Of a stretch of DNA of 30,333 nt, positions 1 through 5,737 are shown one piece after another. The translations under genes and the position numbers were made by a program. The stretch is from UHGV virus genome UHGV-0122274; one strand, written 5' to 3'. The notes below the pieces were generated by a model that saw nothing but the letters and a program-made list of their open reading frames with translations, was not told where the DNA came from and made no database searches. How positions within the stretch are numbered: position 1 is the stretch's first letter; every line of letters begins with the position of its first letter. The stretch is from a virus.

Positions 1-24
1 CTGTCTGGGAGTTTACTCACTTAG

Positions 25-390
25 TCGCGTGTCCACTATTCGCGGGTAGGATCAGTTGAACTTCTCACTACGCTAAGCTCTATCACCAAACCAGTATCAG
101 AGTTTGTTTTTGCCGGGCGCAACGATAAGAAAAAGCCAATCTGCGAGAACGCGGTATTGCTTGTGATCAAACAAATCGGCTATGAAGGTCTGGAAAGCGG
201 TCACGGATTCAGGCATGAATTCAGCACTATTATGAACGAGCACGAATGGCCTGCTGACGCTATTGAAGTGCAACTGGCACATGCCAACGGCGGATCTGTG
301 CGCGGGATTTACAACCATGCTCAGTATCTCGATAAGCGCAGAGAAATGATGCAGTGGTGGGCGGACTGGCTTGATGAAAAGGTGGAGTGA
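25..390 (+). CDS. int: Tyrosine integrase (P4/IntS-like), C-terminal catalytic fragment only; reading frame closed upstream by in-frame TAG at 22-24
   Basis: Frame 1 translation ...EFVFAGRNDKKKPICENAVLLVIKQIGYEGLESGHGFRHEFSTIMNEHEWPADAIEVQLAHANGGSVRGIYNHAQYLDKRREMMQWWADWLDEKVE contains the box II HGFRH, LAHA and Y-x-H tyrosine recombinase motifs. The N-terminal catalytic half is absent from the window. Confidence 0.6.
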   Translation, partial: SRVHYSRVGSVELLTTLSSITKPVSEFVFAGRNDKKKPICENAVLLVIKQIGYEGLESGHGFRHEFSTIMNEHEWPADAIEVQLAHANGGSVRGIYNHAQYLDKRREMMQWWADWLDEKVE

Positions 391-541
391 TCGACCTTAA
401 CCACTATCGAATATCACAAATCCTTGCAATCCAGTGCAAAGATTTGTGTGCCAGAGTTTTTCTCATCAACTACCGCAAGTATCGATCGATTGAGACTTGG
501 ATGATAGACTTCATGCCTTTGATTATTAGCTGATAGAAGAA

Positions 542-904
542 ATGTTAAAGCTATTTGCAAAGTACACCTCGATTGGTGTGCTGAACACACTTATACACTG
601 GGTGGTTTTTGGTGTTTGTATCTATGCCGCGCATACCAATCAGGCTCTGGCAAACTTCGCAGGTTTTGTTGTGGCTGTGAGTTTTAGCTTCTTCGCGAAT
701 GCAAAATTCACATTCAAAGCATCAACTACAACGATGCGCTACATGTTATATGTCGGGTTCATGGGAACACTGAGTGCAACTGTTGGATGGGCTGCTGATA
801 GATGTTCACTTCCTCCAATTGTCACTCTTGTCACCTTCTCCGCCATCAGCCTGGTGTGCGGTTTCGTCTATTCAAAGTTCATTGTCTTTAGGAATTCAAA
901 ATGA
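542..904 (+). CDS. gtrA: GtrA, bactoprenol-linked glucose translocase (flippase) of the O-antigen glucosylation cassette
   Basis: 120-aa small hydrophobic protein with about 4 predicted TM segments, directly upstream of and overlapping a GT2 glucosyltransferase; classic gtrA position and size. Confidence 0.85.
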
Positions 905-1818
905 AAATTTCGCTTGTTGTTCCGGTCTTCAATGAGGAGGCCGCAATACCAATCTTCTACAAAACGGTGCGAGAATTCGACAAGTTAAAGCAGTATGAAG
1001 TTGAAATAGTTTTCATCAATGATGGCAGTAAAGACGCAACAGAATCAATTATCAACGCGCTTGCGATGTCAGATCCTCTTGTAGTTTCACTGTCATTCAC
1101 AAGGAATTTTGGTAAAGAGCCAGCTTTGTTTGCTGGACTTGAACATGCAACTGGCAATGCAGTAATACCTATAGATGTTGATCTTCAGGACCCAATCGAG
1201 GTTATCCCGCACCTGATAGAGAAATGGCAGTCAGGATCTGACATGGTTCTTGCTAAGCGATCAGAACGTTCTACTGATAGTCTATTAAAGCGGAAAACAG
1301 CGGAGTGGTTCTACAAACTACATAACAAAATCAGCAATCCAAAGATTGAGGAAAATGTTGGTGATTTTCGGCTGATGAGCCGCGATGTTGTCGAAAACAT
1401 AAAGAGAATGCCAGAACGAAACCTGTTCATGAAAGGCGTGTTGAGTTGGGTTGGTGGCAAGACAGACGTCGTTGAATATGTCCGTGCTGAACGTGTTGCG
1501 GGAGATTCAAAGTTCAATGGCTGGAAATTATGGAACCTAGCACTTGAAGGTATTACCAGCTTTTCAACTTTTCCTCTCAAAATATGGACATATATAGGTT
1601 TGTTCGTCGCCGGTACAGCGTTCACGTATGGCTCGTGGATGATTATTGATACGTTAGCATTTGGTAACCCCGTTAGAGGTTATCCGTCAATTCTGGTATC
1701 GATTCTTTTCCTTGGAGGCATCCAACTTATTGGAATCGGTATTCTTGGTGAATATGTTGGCCGTATATATATAGAAACAAAAAAACGACCAAAATATTTT
1801 TTAAAGGATAAAAAATGA
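901..1818 (+). CDS. gtrB: GtrB, bactoprenol glucosyltransferase (GT2 family)
   Basis: 305 aa; N-terminal [13 protein letters not shown]...INDGSKD GT2 signature, DxD-like IDVDLQD, C-terminal pair of TM helices; start overlaps gtrA stop. Confidence 0.9.
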
Positions 1819-3299
1819 ATTTAAAAAAAGAAATAAACGCCAATAGCATTAAGATAATGGTTATAGCATTTATAACGTCTTTACTCGTTTATTTTCAAAA
1901 CCTAACCAACTTTTCTATATCAATAGACACAGAGTACGCTTTTTTTTCATGGCCTAATGAAGGTATTTTATGGTGGATTTCTCTAGGGCGGTGGGGTTCA
2001 GCAATAATCGACTATATATTTAGGGTAAACGCCTACACGCCGGGGTTTACAACTCTCGTAATGTTAGCGCTTAATGTTATAACTGCTTTCTTATTAGCTG
2101 TAAACACGTTTAAGCTCCTTAGTACAAGGATAATGTTTGCTATTATTTTTGTATCATTTCCGCAATTTGCTTATCAAGCTGAGTTTGCTCAGCAGTCCGA
2201 TACCGTTGCATTAGGTCAACTTCTCGCATGTATATCAGGTCTGATACTTTATTCTTCAATCTTTGGAAAAGACAAAGTAAATATAAAACTTCTATTTATT
2301 GGGGTTTTAGTGCTTACCTTTTCACTAGGAATATATCAATCACTAATCTCTTTCCCTGTCGTTGTATTTTTAATGCAATTCATTGCAAAATGTAATGAAG
2401 AATGCAAAAAGAGAATCATTAAATGTTTTTCAATATTTTCGCTTGCAATAATACTTGCTACATCCATTTATTATATAATAGTTTTTTTAAGTCATGCTAT
2501 ATTCAACGTAACCACACCCACATATCTTAAAGACACCTTTCACTGGCTAAAAGAACCTGTATACGAAACGCTTCAAAGGGTGAGTGAGGTTGTGATATCA
2601 ACACTCACAGGTGATTATTATTTTGGGGCTAGCATTATTCCGTTCATGGTGGTTCCCGTTGTTTTTCTTTCCTATAGTCAGGTAATCAATCATGATAAAA
2701 ATATTATAAAATTAATATCAATATTAACATTAGCAATCAGCCCCTTCTTTGTGGTTATCGGACTCGGGGGCATACAGGGCCCCAGAGTTTTGCTTGGGTT
2801 ATCTGTAACATTCGCTTTTCTATTTGCTTTCGCTATAGAAAAATTAAAAACATGCAGCAAAGTAAAAAGCACACTGTCAGCCCTAATTTGCACAATTGTA
2901 GTTTACTATAGTGCATCAACAGTAAATATGCTCTTTTACTCTGATGCAATGGCAAGAGAGATAGATTCCAACATAACTAACAGGATATTGTCCCAACTAC
3001 AAAGTAAGTATGGTAACTTTAATCCGTCAACGGATGTCGTAAGTTTCATCGGTGCGTATCCCACATACAACCCTTGGAAAAAAAATAATTCTGACACCTT
3101 TGGTGAGTCAATGTTTAGTTTTTCAGGAGGAGATCCTCGTAGAATTACAAAATATGCAGCAATGATAAGTGGGTTTTCTTTAAATTTACACATTGCAAGT
3201 AACGACGAAAAAGAAAAATTAAAACTCATTCCGTCATGGCCTGACGCGGACTCAATAACAGTTATGAATGGAATTTATTTCATTAAGCTAGGAGATTAA
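1815..3299 (+). CDS. Serotype-specific O-antigen glucosyltransferase (GtrC / Gtr-type family), polytopic membrane protein
   Basis: 494-aa highly hydrophobic protein, third gene of the gtr operon with ATGA overlap to gtrB; markedly AT-rich coding sequence. Confidence 0.75.
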
Positions 3300-3304
3300 T
3301 AAAT

Positions 3305-3331
3305 GGCAAGAGGTGGTTTCTACCTCTTGCC
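3305..3331. terminator. Stem-loop (9-bp perfect stem ggcaagagg / cctcttgcc) between convergent gtrC and tailspike genes; candidate bidirectional terminator
   Basis: Perfect inverted repeat read directly; lies between the gtrC stop (3297-3299) and the tailspike stop (3370-3372). Flanking U-tracts are weak. Confidence 0.35.
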
Positions 3332-3369
3332 TTACAAAGTCAACCAAACTTTTTATTATGAACAGAAAT

Positions 3370-5550
3370 TTAGCCTGATGCTAATCTAGCAACAATACCA
3401 GCCATAACAAAAACGATTATCTGGTCATAATTAAGTGCGTATGCATCATTCACTTCATCATGGTCTATCATTTTGTATTTTCTGTAATTAAGCCCATGTT
3501 TTTCCATTACTTTTATTACATCTTGAACTATGTACCCGATATTAATAGGTGAGTCATCGCCCATTTCCTCACAATCTTTAAGCCACATGAATGTACCAGA
3601 GCATAGTGCAAGCTCTTGTGCAGCAGCGATTTCATTCTCTGTAAATTTCTTAAGCTTGGTTTTCTTGCGTTCATCAGATGTTGTTAAAACCCCACCTGCG
3701 GAATACACAAGTTTCCATAAACGAGTTGAATCACCGTTGGTATATGTGTTGCTTATGTGAGGCCCGCAAGCGCCATTAATGTCTAGGGGAAATACTGGAT
3801 TATCTGTATTAACACCAACGTTACCACCGCGAGGATTAATAACTACTTGGTAGTTATTGCCGGATGCATCACTCCCCTGAATAAAGCCGCCGTTAGAGCC
3901 AGAGTTGCTCAAACATCCAAACTGTAGCTCTCTAGCACCGTCTGTGTATTGCGTCCTGAAAGAACCTAGCTTAAACATTGTGCCATCTGACATTGGTGCA
4001 TTGGTTTTATTACTAGCATATAAAAGTGCAGATGGAGATGACCCATCATTCATAATCCCAACAAGGCCGCTTGGTGTAATCTCCATTACTTTATGCGGTT
4101 TATAGGCACCATCGCCCCCGTTATAGAAACGGATAGGATAATATTTACCATCCCCGGAAATTCCTGCCCTTATTTCGTATTCACCAACTGCTTTAGCAGA
4201 GATAGTTAAATTCTCCTCATCCACGCCTGTAGTTTTCTGCACACGCAATGTACTTATTTGTGAGTTAATATCATCCCTCATTTTGTATTGCGCGTTTGTG
4301 GCATTTATAGAGGTATCCTGCAAAGTGCACGTATTGCCTTTATTAGATATACTGACGACGTTACGAAGTGTTCCGTTAAGCCAGAATTTATACGTACCAT
4401 TTCCATATCCGAAGAAAAAGAATGGATCTCCTGATTTTCTTGTACATACCCCATTTACCACGTCGCATATACCCCCACCTGTGGTATATACGTAATGGTA
4501 TCTAGAATGAGCACCTATGGCAGCAGTAAGGTTTCCCCCTCCAATTTCTGTAACAGAAATCTGGTCTGCTGAGGTTAATGCAGTAATTACCAGTGCCCTG
4601 TCAAAAGCATAAATTGCATCACCTACTGCCCAATTAGTAATGTCGAAAAGCGAGCCACTTTCACGTATCAGTACGTTCTGTGACTGATGTACAAGTTGAC
4701 CTTGTGCCGCAGAGCCATAAATAGCAACTTCTGATGGGTTATAATTTTTGCTAGTTTGAATGCGCATCCAGTTAGCGTGCCCATCTGATGATAAGAACAT
4801 TCCATCACCAGAATCCATAAGAGCGCCTCCACCAACTTTAAAGCCACCCATATTCGCAGTTGTTCCCGCAGAAACAATTCCCGCACCGAATTTAGTTTCG
4901 TCTCTTCGGCGGTACTGAACGTTTAAAAATGCAGAAAAGGATATGGCTGGCGTTAATATTGCCTCAGAGTCAACAATTAACGTGGGTAGTTTTGCCCACA
5001 CCAGGGCGATAGGAGTATTGCATACATAATTACCAGCAGGAACATATAGTGTTGTGCAACCGGAAGGAAGCGCAGCAATCATTGCTGCCCATAAGGAACT
5101 CTCGTCAGTGCCGTCACCCATAATCCCATAATCACGGACATTAATGAAATCAGCTAGCGCAAGCTTACCATTCCTGATAGTAAGAGGCCGATCAAGCAGA
5201 TTCTGTCTTAACTGGTCAGGGTCATACTTCAGCACATTAGGGAAATAGAACTGCTGCGTGCCATATGCATCATAAACAGCCATCGAATGACCTTGCACGG
5301 TAACGAATTTGGCAATCTGTCCGTTATATACAGGATATCCGGCAACGTTAATGATGATTGGCTGTGCAACAGGAATGTGAGAACCGTCTTCGTTCTCCAC
5401 ATAAACCTGAATCTGGTTTTCAGGATTTACCGGGTCAGTGTCAATTTTACCGATATAAATTTTGCCATTGGCTACGGCTTTAAAAGAACGAGCCATAGTG
5501 AAGAGTTGCGAAGGCATACTCACTACAACATTGGCTGTAATGTCTGTCAT
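3370..5550 (-). CDS. Tailspike protein: P22 gp9-like N-terminal head-binding domain, central beta-helix-like receptor-binding/depolymerase domain, C-terminal intramolecular chaperone (S74-like) region
   Basis: N-terminus [43 protein letters not shown]... matches the P22 tailspike head-binding domain from memory; [13 protein letters not shown] motif typical of pectate-lyase-fold beta-helix starts; C-terminal [10 protein letters not shown] resembles the S-D-x-R-x-K autocleavage motif; GGAG RBS upstream. Confidence 0.85.
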
Positions 5551-5608
5551 CTAATTTGCTCCAGATGCAAGGAATCGCCGCAGCATGGCTACGGTGAATT
5601 TTTGGCAT

Positions 5609-5631
5609 AAAAAAACCCAGCCGAAGCTGGG
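5609..5631 (-). terminator. Intrinsic terminator (cccagc-TTCG-gctggg stem-loop followed by U7) between gp16 and tailspike
   Basis: On the - strand, a 6-bp GC-rich stem with TTCG tetraloop followed by TTTTTTT; located between the gp16 stop (5738) and the tailspike start (5550). Confidence 0.55.
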
Positions 5632-5737
5632 TCGTTGCGTTGGTTATCTGTCAGTAGTTATGTACTGAAGGAGGTAATTCTTATTCTTAAGTCTTATCAG
5701 GATTTGGAAACACAGTTATATGCAACAGTAGATAAAA

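What the first reader, a model, noticed from the sequence alone, without database searches (positions are those of the whole stretch)
3370..5550. Three-part chimeric tailspike: P22-type head-binding domain, beta-helix-like enzyme core, C-terminal autoproteolytic chaperone-like region
The first roughly 110 residues match the P22 gp9 head-binding domain, but the remainder is unrelated to P22 gp9. It begins with [13 protein letters not shown], typical of pectate-lyase-fold glycanase beta-helices, and ends with a segment containing [10 protein letters not shown], which resembles the Ser-Asp-x-Arg-x-Lys autocleavage site of intramolecular chaperone (peptidase S74-type) domains in tail fibres and endosialidases. 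The receptor specificity is therefore not that of P22 and is unknown, and the mature protein may be C-terminally processed.
Basis: partly seen in the sequence, partly recalled or inferred. Interest (0 to 1): 0.5.

Follow-up and report, generated by a model that had tools for sequence, protein, structure and literature searches.

The report
Mosaic prophage tailspike with chaperone domain
This is the host-recognition spike of a P22-like E. coli prophage, built from a standard P22-type attachment domain, an uncharacterised receptor-binding module that is probably not the usual beta-helix enzyme, and a C-terminal self-cleaving folding chaperone; this three-part layout is already known from phage CUS-3, so it is a new member of a known kind.

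Summary
The 726-aa ORF at 3370-5550 (minus strand) is real and has three parts. Residues 1-113 are a P22-type head-binding domain (Pfam E 7e-67). Residues 625-726 are a Peptidase_S74 intramolecular chaperone (30.7 bits, cutoff 22), with the Ser625/Lys630 dyad aligned to solved homologues. The middle is unrelated to P22 gp9.

The "beta-helix enzyme core" reading is not supported. Only about 45 residues after DYGIMGDG resemble a beta-helix N-cap (below the Pfam cutoff). The core profile hits no solved structure. An AlphaFold model (pLDDT above 90 for most of residues 245-495) shows long antiparallel strands and a duplicated small beta-barrel, and no significant fold match was found.

The core belongs to a large unannotated family (1,131 cluster representatives). 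These mostly lack S74 and occur behind P22-type, T7-type and other anchors.

Cleavage at Thr624|Ser625 is likely but not certain, because the helper Arg normally at -14 is Leu here.

Every temperate relative examined has an O-antigen-modifying gene (gtrABC or an acyltransferase) directly downstream, so the receptor is probably O-antigen. The serogroup could not be named, because the lysogens differ.

CUS-3 has the same head-binding, enzyme and S74 layout.

Verdict: new member of a known kind, modest interest.

The parts
3370..5550 (-). Tailspike / receptor-binding protein ORF, 726 aa (stop codon at 3370-3372).
   Evidence: ORF list. A 99%-identical cluster representative (75 member sequences) is named 'phage tailspike protein' by NCBI. 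The gene is full length in 3 of 5,426 complete E. coli genomes and 91% covered in a fourth.
5212..5550 (-). Residues 1-113: P22-type head-binding (tail-hub anchor) domain.
   Evidence: PF09008 at E 7.4e-67 with full profile coverage. Matches Sf6 gp14 (7sg7) and P22 gp9 (2xc1, 1lkt). DNA homology to other Lederbergvirus tailspike genes stops at nucleotide ~340-351 of the gene.
5149..5211 (-). Residues 114-134: linker between the anchor and the receptor-binding module, containing the recombination joint.
   Evidence: Homology to P22-like tailspikes ends near codon 117. Homology to the T7-anchor version begins at codon ~140.
5005..5148 (-). Residues 135-182: short N-cap motif ([10 protein letters not shown]...LYVPAGNY) of the kind that opens right-handed beta-helix enzymes and also the endosialidase N-terminal extension.
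   Evidence: PF12708 positions 1-51 of 213, 26.0 bits against a cutoff of 27. PDB hits cover only the first 40-50 residues of Lam55A, AlgE4 and RGase A. The motif aligns to the End_N_terminal region of CUS-3. pLDDT is 85-89.
4051..4818 (-). Residues 245-500: conserved central domain of a large unannotated receptor-binding family. It is all-beta and has conserved W261, E274, Y278, R436, E445, E446 and N447.
   Evidence: The exhaustive profile search found 1,131 representatives at E<=1e-3. Conservation was measured across 116 sequences. AlphaFold pLDDT is mostly above 90. There is no Pfam or PDB sequence hit. Only phrog_28871, of unknown function, matches.
4534..4710 (-). Residues 281-339: first copy of an internal duplicated small beta-barrel unit.
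   Evidence: hhalign of sub-alignments gives probability 97.6%, E 3e-12. Weak structural hits to riboflavin-synthase-type barrels.
4303..4482 (-). Residues 357-416: second copy of the duplicated beta-barrel unit (contains the SGDPF motif).
   Evidence: hhalign. G374, P376 and F377 are nearly invariant.
3679..4050 (-). Residues 501-624: Gly-rich distal region ending at the predicted mature C-terminus (Thr624). The last ~40-50 residues are homologous to the trimeric segment that precedes the cleavage site in T5 pb1 and similar proteins.
   Evidence: PDB matches start upstream of the Ser: 4uw8 covers query 584-701, 7y5s 605-703, 6eu4 597-723. pLDDT is low in the monomer model, as expected for an intertwined trimer.
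3373..3678 (-). Residues 625-726: Peptidase_S74 C-terminal intramolecular chaperone domain.
   Evidence: PF13884 at 30.7 bits against a cutoff of 22. Aligned to 7y5s, 4uw8, 6eu4, 9vvr, 3gud and 3gw6. Four predicted helices plus a hairpin. GC is 0.37 against 0.43 for the rest of the gene.
3661..3678 (-). Codons for Ser625-Asp-Glu-Arg-Lys-Lys630: the predicted catalytic dyad (Ser625, Lys630). The predicted scissile bond is Thr624|Ser625.
   Evidence: Alignment to T5 pb1 S1264/K1269, CUS-3 TSDGTLK and GA-1 3gud, which starts at SDERHK. Mechanism taken from PMC4690869 and PMC8326128.
3305..3331 (-). Hairpin terminator-like site in the 70-bp spacer between the convergent tailspike and gtrC genes.
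   Evidence: Consensus scan: 10-pair stem with 6 GC pairs. The spacer is 98.6% identical in the T7-like prophage.
5614..5633 (-). Hairpin terminator-like site upstream of the tailspike start, after the ejection-protein gene. It lies in a stretch homologous to the CUS-3 'boundary sequence' bsq1.
   Evidence: Consensus scan. Window 5203-5698 matches CUS-3 locus 3852-4348, which includes bsq1.
542..3299 (+). gtrA (542-904), gtrB (901-1818) and gtrC (1815-3299): an O-antigen glucosylation operon convergent with the tailspike. It is a functionally linked neighbour.
   Evidence: RefSeq annotation of the 99.3%-identical region in strain E89. Pfam families in related loci. GtrC is 25% identical to SfII GtrII.

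Best explanation
The ORF encodes the trimeric tailspike (receptor-binding protein) of an otherwise ordinary P22-like (Lederbergvirus-type) E. coli prophage. It was assembled by module exchange from three parts.

(1) Residues 1-113 dock the protein on the tail hub, as in P22, Sf6, HK620 and CUS-3. This is shown by homology.

(2) Residues ~135-624 form a receptor-binding module from a large, unannotated family of phage fibre/spike proteins. It opens with a short beta-helix-type cap motif. Its conserved centre (245-500) is a different all-beta structure that contains a duplicated small barrel and a conserved Trp/Glu/Arg/Glu-Glu/Asn cluster. This module most likely recognises O-antigen, and possibly cleaves or deacylates it. 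That is an inference from context, because every temperate relative examined has an O-antigen-modifying gene directly downstream.

(3) Residues 625-726 are an S74 intramolecular chaperone. By analogy with endoNF and T5 pb1, three copies nucleate folding of the preceding trimeric segment. Ser625, activated by Lys630, then cuts the Thr624|Ser625 bond. This would release an 11.6-kDa fragment, leave a 66.9-kDa mature spike and expose the distal tip.

The adjacent gtrABC operon then glucosylates the lysogen's O-antigen, presumably so that it is no longer recognised.
For: Architecture: Pfam, PDB sequence matches, and the same layout in CUS-3.

Backbone: 96-97% DNA identity to phages APC_JM3.2, IME10, HZ41 and Dewey, and the gene order is P22-like.

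Module exchange: the same core plus S74 occurs behind a Phage_T7_tail anchor (P0003, P0005), a third anchor type (P0009, P0012) and a short N-terminus with a separate adaptor gene (P0017).

Core family: 1,131 representatives. Only 9 of 140 distant representatives carry S74.

Core structure: pLDDT 75 overall and mostly above 90 for residues 245-495. Internal duplication at hhalign probability 97.6%. Conserved W261, E274, R436, E445, E446 and N447.

S74: the Ser/Lys+5 dyad is conserved in all relatives and aligned to solved homologues. Mechanism and cleavage position come from PMC4690869 and PMC8326128.

O-antigen context: gtrCBA or Acyl_transf_3 lies immediately downstream in five independent contexts.
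Against: No enzymatic fold or family could be assigned to the core, so catalysis is unproven.

The helper Arg at -14 (T5 R1250, endoNF R897) is Leu611 here. Arg610 sits at -15 and Lys613 at -12, so autocleavage could be slower or absent.

The distal 120 residues and the S74 domain were modelled only as a monomer and at low confidence.

The lysogens do not share one O-antigen type: ES9 is O4-family, 19451123 has a rare unnamed rhamnose-containing type, and E89 has lost its cluster.

The tailspike core and gtrBC have different divergence histories, 68-73% against ~99% DNA identity, so the linkage is recurrent rather than a single inherited block.
Confidence: 0.7

Rival explanations
1. The middle ~500 residues would form a pectate-lyase-fold right-handed beta-helix glycanase, like the P22, Sf6 and HK620 spikes, with a new specificity.
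Against: All sequence matches stop after ~50 residues of a 213-position model. The score is below the Pfam cutoff (26.0 against 27). The core profile finds no solved structure at E<=10. Foldseek against the PDB gives nothing at E<=1e-3 and no beta-helix near the top. The confident part of the model has 9-10-residue antiparallel strands and two barrel repeats, not short solenoid rungs. About half of the family lacks the cap region altogether (occupancy 0.5-0.7).
Confidence: 0.12
2. The protein would be a non-enzymatic, fibre-like adhesin. It would bind O-antigen without degrading it, using a site at the distal tip that is unmasked when the chaperone leaves, as proposed for T5 pb1.
For: No hydrolase, lyase or esterase family or fold was detected. 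The S74-linked distal segment is homologous to that of T5 pb1, where only the cleaved form blocks adsorption (PMC4690869). The family also occurs behind T7-fibre anchors.
Against: Three Glu residues, an Arg, a Trp and an Asn are over 85-95% conserved across a family whose members must see very different glycans. That pattern suits a catalytic centre better than a binding site, though it could also be structural. P22-like virions with short spikes usually need to digest their way through the O-antigen layer (established knowledge of P22, Sf6 and HK620).
Confidence: 0.35
3. The S74 domain would fold the trimer but no longer cut itself off, because the helper arginine is lost. The mature spike would then keep a C-terminal cap.
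For: Leu611 replaces the Arg at -14 that is present in T5, CUS-3 and nearly all close relatives. The substitution is shared by P0001, P0002 and P0008, of which P0001 and P0008 are full-length head-binding-type versions. In endoNF and T5 this Arg is described as key to cleavage.
Against: The Ser/Lys dyad is intact and the whole domain is conserved. Lys613 at -12 lies on the same strand face as -14 (inference). 6eu4 has Arg at -12 and 9vvr has Arg at -15, so the position varies among S74 proteins. A retained cap would block the tip, and in T5 an uncleaved cap prevents receptor binding.
Confidence: 0.25

Closest known systems
Phage CUS-3 endosialidase tailspike (SiaK1; Lederbergvirus, E. coli K1)
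   Same: It has the identical three-part layout: Head_binding (E 5e-66), a non-gp9 receptor module and a C-terminal Peptidase_S74. The first 120 residues are about 90% identical to this protein, and the alignment over residues 1-168 is 74% identical. The GDG motif region and the cleavage site also align (TSDGTLK against TSDERKK). The receptor module of CUS-3 is likewise shared with a T7-anchor phage, K1F (PMC5380687).
   Different: The middle of CUS-3 is a beta-propeller endosialidase (PF12217, PF12219, PF12195), and none of these families matches here. CUS-3 keeps Arg at -14. CUS-3 targets the K1 capsule and carries neuO next to the spike, whereas this prophage carries gtrABC.
P22 gp9, Sf6 gp14 and HK620 gp9 tailspikes
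   Same: They share the N-terminal head-binding domain (74-85% identity), the gene position after the ejection-protein genes, and a seroconversion locus next to the spike.
   Different: Their receptor modules are long right-handed beta-helix endoglycosidases without an S74 domain. Homology to this protein ends at residue ~115-121.
Phage T5 L-shaped tail fibre pb1 (4uw7, 4uw8) and endoNF of K1F (3gw6)
   Same: They carry a C-terminal intramolecular chaperone with a Ser/Lys+5 dyad. Homology starts ~40 residues before the Ser. The mature protein ends with Thr just before the Ser.
   Different: Their chaperones are longer (133 aa in T5, against 102 here). They keep Arg at -14. The receptor-binding parts are unrelated to this core.
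vB_EcoP-ZQ2 (N4-like coliphage) 'Peptidase S74 domain-containing protein' and phrog_28871
   Same: These are the only annotated phage relatives of the core. The BFVD Foldseek match is E 2.9e-22 at 22% identity, tblastn gives 24% over 82% of the query, and phrog_28871 matches at E 6e-266.
   Different: They are uncharacterised (function unknown), use a different anchor, and the ZQ2 protein is longer at 1,073 aa.

Membership tests
P22-type tailspike head-binding domain (Pfam PF09008) | Profile match above the curated cutoff over the whole domain. | tested here: met
   223.1 bits against a cutoff of 24; residues 1-113 cover 1-113 of 113 profile positions.
P22-type tailspike head-binding domain (Pfam PF09008) | Gene lies at the end of a P22-like virion module, after the gp7/gp20/gp16-type ejection genes. 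| tested here: met
   ORF order in the window. 96-97% identity of the rest of the window to Lederbergvirus phages. The relatives' loci show P22_gp7, Inj_translocase and Phage_P22_gp16 upstream.
P22-type tailspike head-binding domain (Pfam PF09008) | Binds the gp4/gp10 tail hub as a trimer. | not testable with these tools
   Requires virion cryo-EM or binding assays.
Peptidase S74 / C-terminal intramolecular chaperone domain (PF13884; MEROPS S74) | Profile match above the curated cutoff at the extreme C-terminus. | tested here: met
   30.7 bits against a cutoff of 22; residues 625-687 cover 1-58 of 58 profile positions. phmmer hits to 7y5s (E 8e-16), 4uw8, 6eu4, 9vvr and 3gud.
Peptidase S74 / C-terminal intramolecular chaperone domain (PF13884; MEROPS S74) | Catalytic Ser with Lys five residues downstream (endoNF S911/K916; T5 S1264/K1269). 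| tested here: met
   Ser625 and Lys630 align to the dyads of T5, CUS-3, 7y5s, 6eu4, 9vvr and GA-1. The dyad is conserved in every S74-bearing relative.
Peptidase S74 / C-terminal intramolecular chaperone domain (PF13884; MEROPS S74) | Helper Arg about 14 residues upstream of the Ser, contributed by the neighbouring chain (endoNF R897, T5 R1250). | tested here: not met
   Position -14 is Leu611, with Arg610 at -15 and Lys613 at -12. Most relatives have Arg at -14. 6eu4 and 9vvr also deviate. This is an accessory residue rather than part of the Pfam definition, but it affects the cleavage prediction.
Peptidase S74 / C-terminal intramolecular chaperone domain (PF13884; MEROPS S74) | Helical body with a beta-hairpin and a C-terminal helix that forms a trimeric coiled coil. 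| tested here: inconclusive
   The monomer model shows helices 638-649, 652-666, 675-684 and 708-724 and a hairpin at 695-706, but pLDDT is only 53-81. No trimer model could be made.
Peptidase S74 / C-terminal intramolecular chaperone domain (PF13884; MEROPS S74) | Trimerisation-dependent autocleavage that releases the domain. | not testable with these tools
   Needs SDS-PAGE or mass spectrometry of wild-type, S625A and K630A protein.
Pectin-lyase-fold right-handed beta-helix depolymerase (PF12708 and relatives) | Profile match above the cutoff that extends over the helix. | tested here: not met
   26.0-26.2 bits against a cutoff of 27, and only profile positions 1-51 of 213. PDB hits are confined to the first 40-50 residues.
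Pectin-lyase-fold right-handed beta-helix depolymerase (PF12708 and relatives) | Multi-rung parallel beta-helix in the structure. | tested here: not met
Endosialidase tailspike (PF12217, PF12219, PF12195) | Beta-propeller catalytic domain. | tested here: not met
   These families do not match this protein, while all of them match CUS-3. Only weak sub-threshold hits to the last ~30 positions of PF12219 appear in relatives.

The most novel reading that the evidence does not exclude
The core (residues ~245-500) would define a widespread, structurally new class of O-antigen-directed receptor-binding or depolymerase domain. It would not be a beta-helix. It would be built around a duplicated small barrel and a conserved Glu274/Arg436/Glu445-Glu446 centre. 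Across at least three unrelated temperate podophage backbones it would be systematically paired with a matching O-antigen-modifying gene, forming a recognise-then-disguise unit. In this P22-type lineage the S74 chaperone would also have lost its canonical helper arginine, so it would either use Lys613 or stay attached.
Probability: 0.3. Interest if true: 0.55.

Novelty: new member of a known kind. Interest (0 to 1): 0.32.

Why it matters
Tailspike receptor modules decide which strains a phage or prophage can infect, and they are the parts used for phage engineering, serotyping reagents and depolymerase therapeutics.

This one shows that a family with more than a thousand cluster representatives still has no Pfam model, no solved structure and no known activity. 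It is also likely to be misannotated as a pectate-lyase-type depolymerase because of a 45-residue motif.

If the core is an O-antigen-specific enzyme of a new fold, it would add a class to the depolymerase repertoire. The consistent pairing with gtr or acyltransferase genes offers a simple genomic rule for guessing the receptor class.

As a piece of biology, however, the anchor, swappable RBD and S74 chaperone design is already textbook (CUS-3/K1F), so the finding mainly extends a known pattern.

Tried and rejected
1. Full-length AlphaFold run with a 21-sequence alignment. Mean pLDDT was 52.5, so it was unusable for the core. It was replaced by a core-only run with 116 sequences.

2. phrog_8280, 'tail spike protein with colanic acid degradation activity', E 6.5e-109. 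Rejected: the score comes from the shared head-binding domain, and the core alone matches only phrog_28871.

3. Naming the receptor from the lysogens' O-antigen clusters.
   - E89 has gnd-IS1-galF, with no O-antigen cluster.
   - 19451123 has a rhamnose-containing cluster found in only 2 of 5,426 genomes.
   - ES9 is annotated as O4 family.
   - There is no common serogroup, so no assignment was made. Strain 74-2 was not examined.

4. Internal repeat by pairwise alignment of the single sequence. It was not significant, with score 25 against 23 +/- 4 for shuffles. It was significant only at profile level.

5. My first idea that the tailspike core plus gtrABC is one co-inherited 4.6-kb cassette (an 86.5% HSP). 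Rejected after per-segment analysis: the core is 68-73% identical, gtrA 76%, and gtrB/gtrC ~99%.

6. A second word-indexed homologue search with the core profile added only seven new proteins. The exhaustive search was needed to see the family.

7. Pfam scan of all 116 alignment members exceeded the size limit. It was replaced by a local S74 HMM search.

8. Literature on 6EU4 did not say whether that Arg(-14)-less S74 protein self-cleaves.
Full report
**Observation**

The window holds a 726-aa ORF on the minus strand at exactly 3370-5550.

- Pfam finds Head_binding (PF09008) over residues 1-113 with full profile coverage, E 7.4e-67.
- Pfam finds Peptidase_S74 (PF13884) over residues 625-687 at 30.7 bits, above the curated cutoff of 22.
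- Pfam finds a sub-threshold match (26.0 bits, cutoff 27) of residues 135-182 to only the first 51 of 213 positions of the pectate-lyase-like model PF12708.
- [13 protein letters not shown] starts at residue 140. The only SDxRxK in the protein starts at residue 625, where the S74 match begins.
- Solved P22 gp9 structures match residues 1-115 only, and Sf6 gp14 matches 1-121. Ungapped identity is 74% and 85% respectively.

**Context**

The ORF order in the window is:

- gtrA (542-904), gtrB (901-1818) and gtrC (1815-3299) on the plus strand;
- the convergent tailspike;
- ejection-protein, needle, coat, scaffold, portal and terminase genes on the minus strand.

The 24.8 kb to the right of the tailspike is 96-97% identical to the E. 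coli Lederbergvirus phages APC_JM3.2, IME10, HZ41 and Dewey. This is a conventional P22-like prophage.

At the DNA level, deposited phages share only the first ~340-351 nucleotides of the gene. The gene is full length at 99.0-99.5% identity in 3 of 5,426 complete E. coli genomes, and 91% of it is present at 99.9% in a fourth. More than 1,100 genomes share the anchor-coding part.

Hairpin terminator-like sites lie just upstream (5633-5614) and just downstream (3331-3305) of the gene. The tailspike and gtr region has lower G+C (0.35-0.43) than the rest of the window (about 0.46-0.52).

**The S74 module**

The C-terminal ~150 residues match solved proteins that carry intramolecular chaperone domains:

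| Structure | Protein | E-value |
|---|---|---|
| 7y5s | phage tail fiber | 8e-16 |
| 4uw8 | T5 L-shaped fibre pb1 | 7.5e-10 |
| 6eu4 | Acinetobacter phage AS12 spike | 9e-8 |
| 9vvr | tail spike protein | 4e-7 |
| 3gud | GA-1 neck appendage chaperone | 5e-4 |
| 3gw6 | endoNF | 0.27 (weak) |

The matches begin 20-50 residues before the Ser. The homologous unit therefore includes the last turns of the trimeric segment that the chaperone folds.

The released GA-1 domain in 3gud starts at SDERHKT, which aligns to SDERKKT here. The S1264A construct of T5 reads TADARLK, and CUS-3 reads TSDGTLK.

Published work defines the mechanism:

- A Ser-Lys dyad does the cutting (endoNF S911/K916; T5 S1264/K1269).
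- An Arg from the neighbouring chain's beta-helix helps (endoNF R897; T5 R1250), so cleavage happens only in a correctly folded trimer.
- In T5 the mature chain ends at Thr1263, and the Ser leaves with the chaperone.
- The uncleaved T5 fragment does not block adsorption (PMC8326128; PMC4690869).

By alignment, I predict cleavage at Thr624|Ser625. This would give a 66.9-kDa mature spike and an 11.6-kDa fragment.

One defining accessory feature is not met. Position -14 is Leu611, whereas T5, CUS-3 and almost all close relatives have Arg there. This protein has Arg610 at -15 and Lys613 at -12, and the same substitution is present in P0001, P0002 and P0008. 6eu4 (Arg at -12) and 9vvr (Arg at -15) show that the position is not fixed across the family. 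I could not find whether those proteins self-cleave. I therefore put actual processing at about 0.65.

**The core is not a demonstrable beta-helix**

The N-terminal ~45 residues of the core match the caps of right-handed beta-helix enzymes: Lam55A, AlgE4/E6, alpha-1,3-glucanase, rhamnogalacturonase A and a cyanophage spike. Every alignment stops after 40-50 residues. The same motif aligns to the End_N_terminal extension of the CUS-3 endosialidase, whose catalytic domain is a propeller. The motif therefore does not predict a beta-helix.

Other evidence points the same way:

- A profile of the core (A2) finds no PDB sequence at E<=10.
- No Pfam family matches beyond that cap.
- Only phrog_28871, of unknown function, matches any part of the core.
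- The full-length AlphaFold model was poor, with mean pLDDT 52.5.

An exhaustive HMMER search then showed that the core belongs to a large family: 1,131 cluster representatives at E<=1e-3 and 209 at E<=1e-30. A 116-sequence alignment gave a usable model of residues 125-624, with mean pLDDT 75 and pTM 0.66.

- Residues ~245-495 are mostly above 90.
- The cap at 135-175 is around 85-89.
- Residues 202-235 and 510-624 are low.

The confident part consists of 6-10-residue strands in hairpin-like succession. It contains an internal duplication, residues 281-339 against 357-416, at hhalign probability 97.6% and E 3e-12. That duplication was not detectable from the single sequence.

- Foldseek against the PDB gives nothing at E<=1e-3. 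The best hit is the phi92 endosialidase at E 1.7e-3 and TM 0.14, followed by riboflavin synthase, which is a tandem small barrel.
- The best viral structural match is an uncharacterised S74-domain protein of the N4-like phage vB_EcoP-ZQ2, at E 2.9e-22 and 22% identity.

Across the 116 sequences the conserved polar residues are W261, E274, Y278, R436, E445, E446, N447 and N514. Such a cluster could be a catalytic centre, but it could equally be structural. Enzymatic activity is therefore an open question. I put it at about 0.4.

**Modularity**

The same core plus S74 module, at 68-81% amino-acid identity, occurs behind several different N-termini:

- a Phage_T7_tail anchor in integrase-bearing T7-like prophages (P0003, P0005, P0014);
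- a second long anchor type (P0009, P0012);
- a short N-terminus with a separate T7-tail adaptor gene in a lytic-looking contig (P0011, P0017);
- a second P22-type allele (P0008).

Among distant members of the core family only 9 of 140 carry an S74-like C-terminus. About half lack the cap region. Cap, central domain and chaperone are therefore separable modules.

This is the pattern already described for CUS-3 (P22 anchor) and K1F (T7 anchor), which share an endosialidase (PMC5380687). It also matches what is described for E. coli RBPs in general (PMC10408124). CUS-3 itself scores Head_binding, the endosialidase domains and Peptidase_S74, so the three-part architecture is known.

**Receptor class**

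A single blastn HSP (window 541-5133, 86.5% identity) links the tailspike core plus gtrCBA of this window to a T7-like prophage. Per-segment analysis shows that it is a composite:

| Segment | DNA identity |
|---|---|
| Tailspike core | 68-73% |
| gtrA | 76% |
| gtrB, gtrC and the 70-bp spacer | ~99% |

It is therefore not one inherited block.

The informative fact is the recurrence. In every temperate context examined, the gene immediately downstream of this RBD family is an O-antigen modifier:

- the same 494-aa GtrC (window, E89, 19451123, P0005);
- a different 464-aa GtrC (P0008);
- an Acyl_transf_3 protein (P0009, P0014).

The lytic-looking contig has none. This is the P22 (gtrABC) and Sf6 (oac) logic, and it makes O-antigen the most likely receptor class. 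I put this at about 0.65, as an inference.

The serogroup could not be named:

- E89 has lost its O-antigen cluster, leaving gnd-IS1-galF.
- 19451123 has a rhamnose-containing cluster seen in only 2 of 5,426 genomes.
- ES9 is annotated as O4 family.

GtrC is only 25% identical to its nearest phage-encoded relative, SfII GtrII.

**Verdict**

- The processing claim needs the Leu611 caveat.

The object is a new member of a known kind: an anchor, a swappable receptor module and an S74 chaperone, as in CUS-3 and K1F.

The residual interest lies in the uncharacterised but widespread core family and its consistent pairing with O-antigen-modifying genes.

Noticed in passing
window 542-3299 (+), with L004/L005 10576-13333: The gtrB and gtrC genes and the 70-bp spacer are ~99% identical between this P22-like prophage and a T7-like prophage integrated next to dusA/pspG. 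The adjacent tailspike core is only 68-73% identical and gtrA 76%. The gtrBC pair therefore has a much more recent common history than its neighbours. GtrC is only 25% identical to its nearest phage-encoded relative, SfII GtrII, so its specificity is unknown.
   Followed up: partly
L015 7246-9554; L017 7614-8609; L018/L019 7567-8652: Other alleles of the same receptor-binding family are each followed by a different O-antigen-modifying gene: a 464-aa GtrC plus GtrB, or an Acyl_transf_3 protein of 331 or 361 aa. This holds across three phage backbones. A lytic-looking contig (L003) has no such gene.
   Followed up: partly
window 3709-3720 (codons 611-614 of the tailspike): The helper Arg normally 14 residues before the catalytic Ser of S74 domains is Leu611. 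The same substitution is seen in P0001, P0002 and P0008. The T7-anchor alleles keep Arg.
   Followed up: partly
window 5551-5737: Only 187 bp separate the ejection-protein gene from the tailspike, so there is no immI region (mnt/arc/ant). The same tailspike in strains 19451123 and E89 is preceded by arc-family genes, and in 19451123 also by an antirepressor gene. The stretch upstream of the start codon matches the annotated 'boundary sequence' bsq1 of CUS-3.
   Followed up: partly
L001 14140-15941 and L007 17764-19565 (E. coli E89): E89 has one IS100 copy next to gtrA and another inside a lambdoid prophage at sbcB, and the proA-thrW region is inverted relative to the his-gnd region. The P22-like prophage there appears to have been split by an IS100-mediated rearrangement.
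   Followed up: no
L007 41507-45190 (E. coli E89): In E89 the whole O-antigen gene cluster between gnd and galF is replaced by a single IS1, so this lysogen should be rough.
   Followed up: no
L008 10278-10975 (E. coli 19451123): An IS1A is inserted in the spacer between the tailspike and gtrC, where the predicted shared terminator lies.
   Followed up: no
L012 12442-26648 (E. coli 19451123): This O-antigen cluster (gne, rfbBDAC, wzx, a DUF6337 protein, three annotated glycosyltransferases and a hypothetical protein) has a wzx-wzy segment present in only 2 of 5,426 complete E. coli genomes. It is probably a rare or unnamed O-type.
   Followed up: no
window 1-4000: G+C falls to 0.35-0.39 across gtrB, gtrC and the tailspike 3' end, against ~0.50 in the virion genes. 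This is consistent with a foreign origin for this end of the prophage. Window 161-426 matches the integrase end of CUS-3.
   Followed up: no
proteins P0026-P0030 (distant relatives of the core): Relatives without S74 end in a different conserved C-terminal motif (G[FY]ITIKDAAGNT[RH]KLA). This suggests an alternative distal or assembly module for the same central domain.
   Followed up: no
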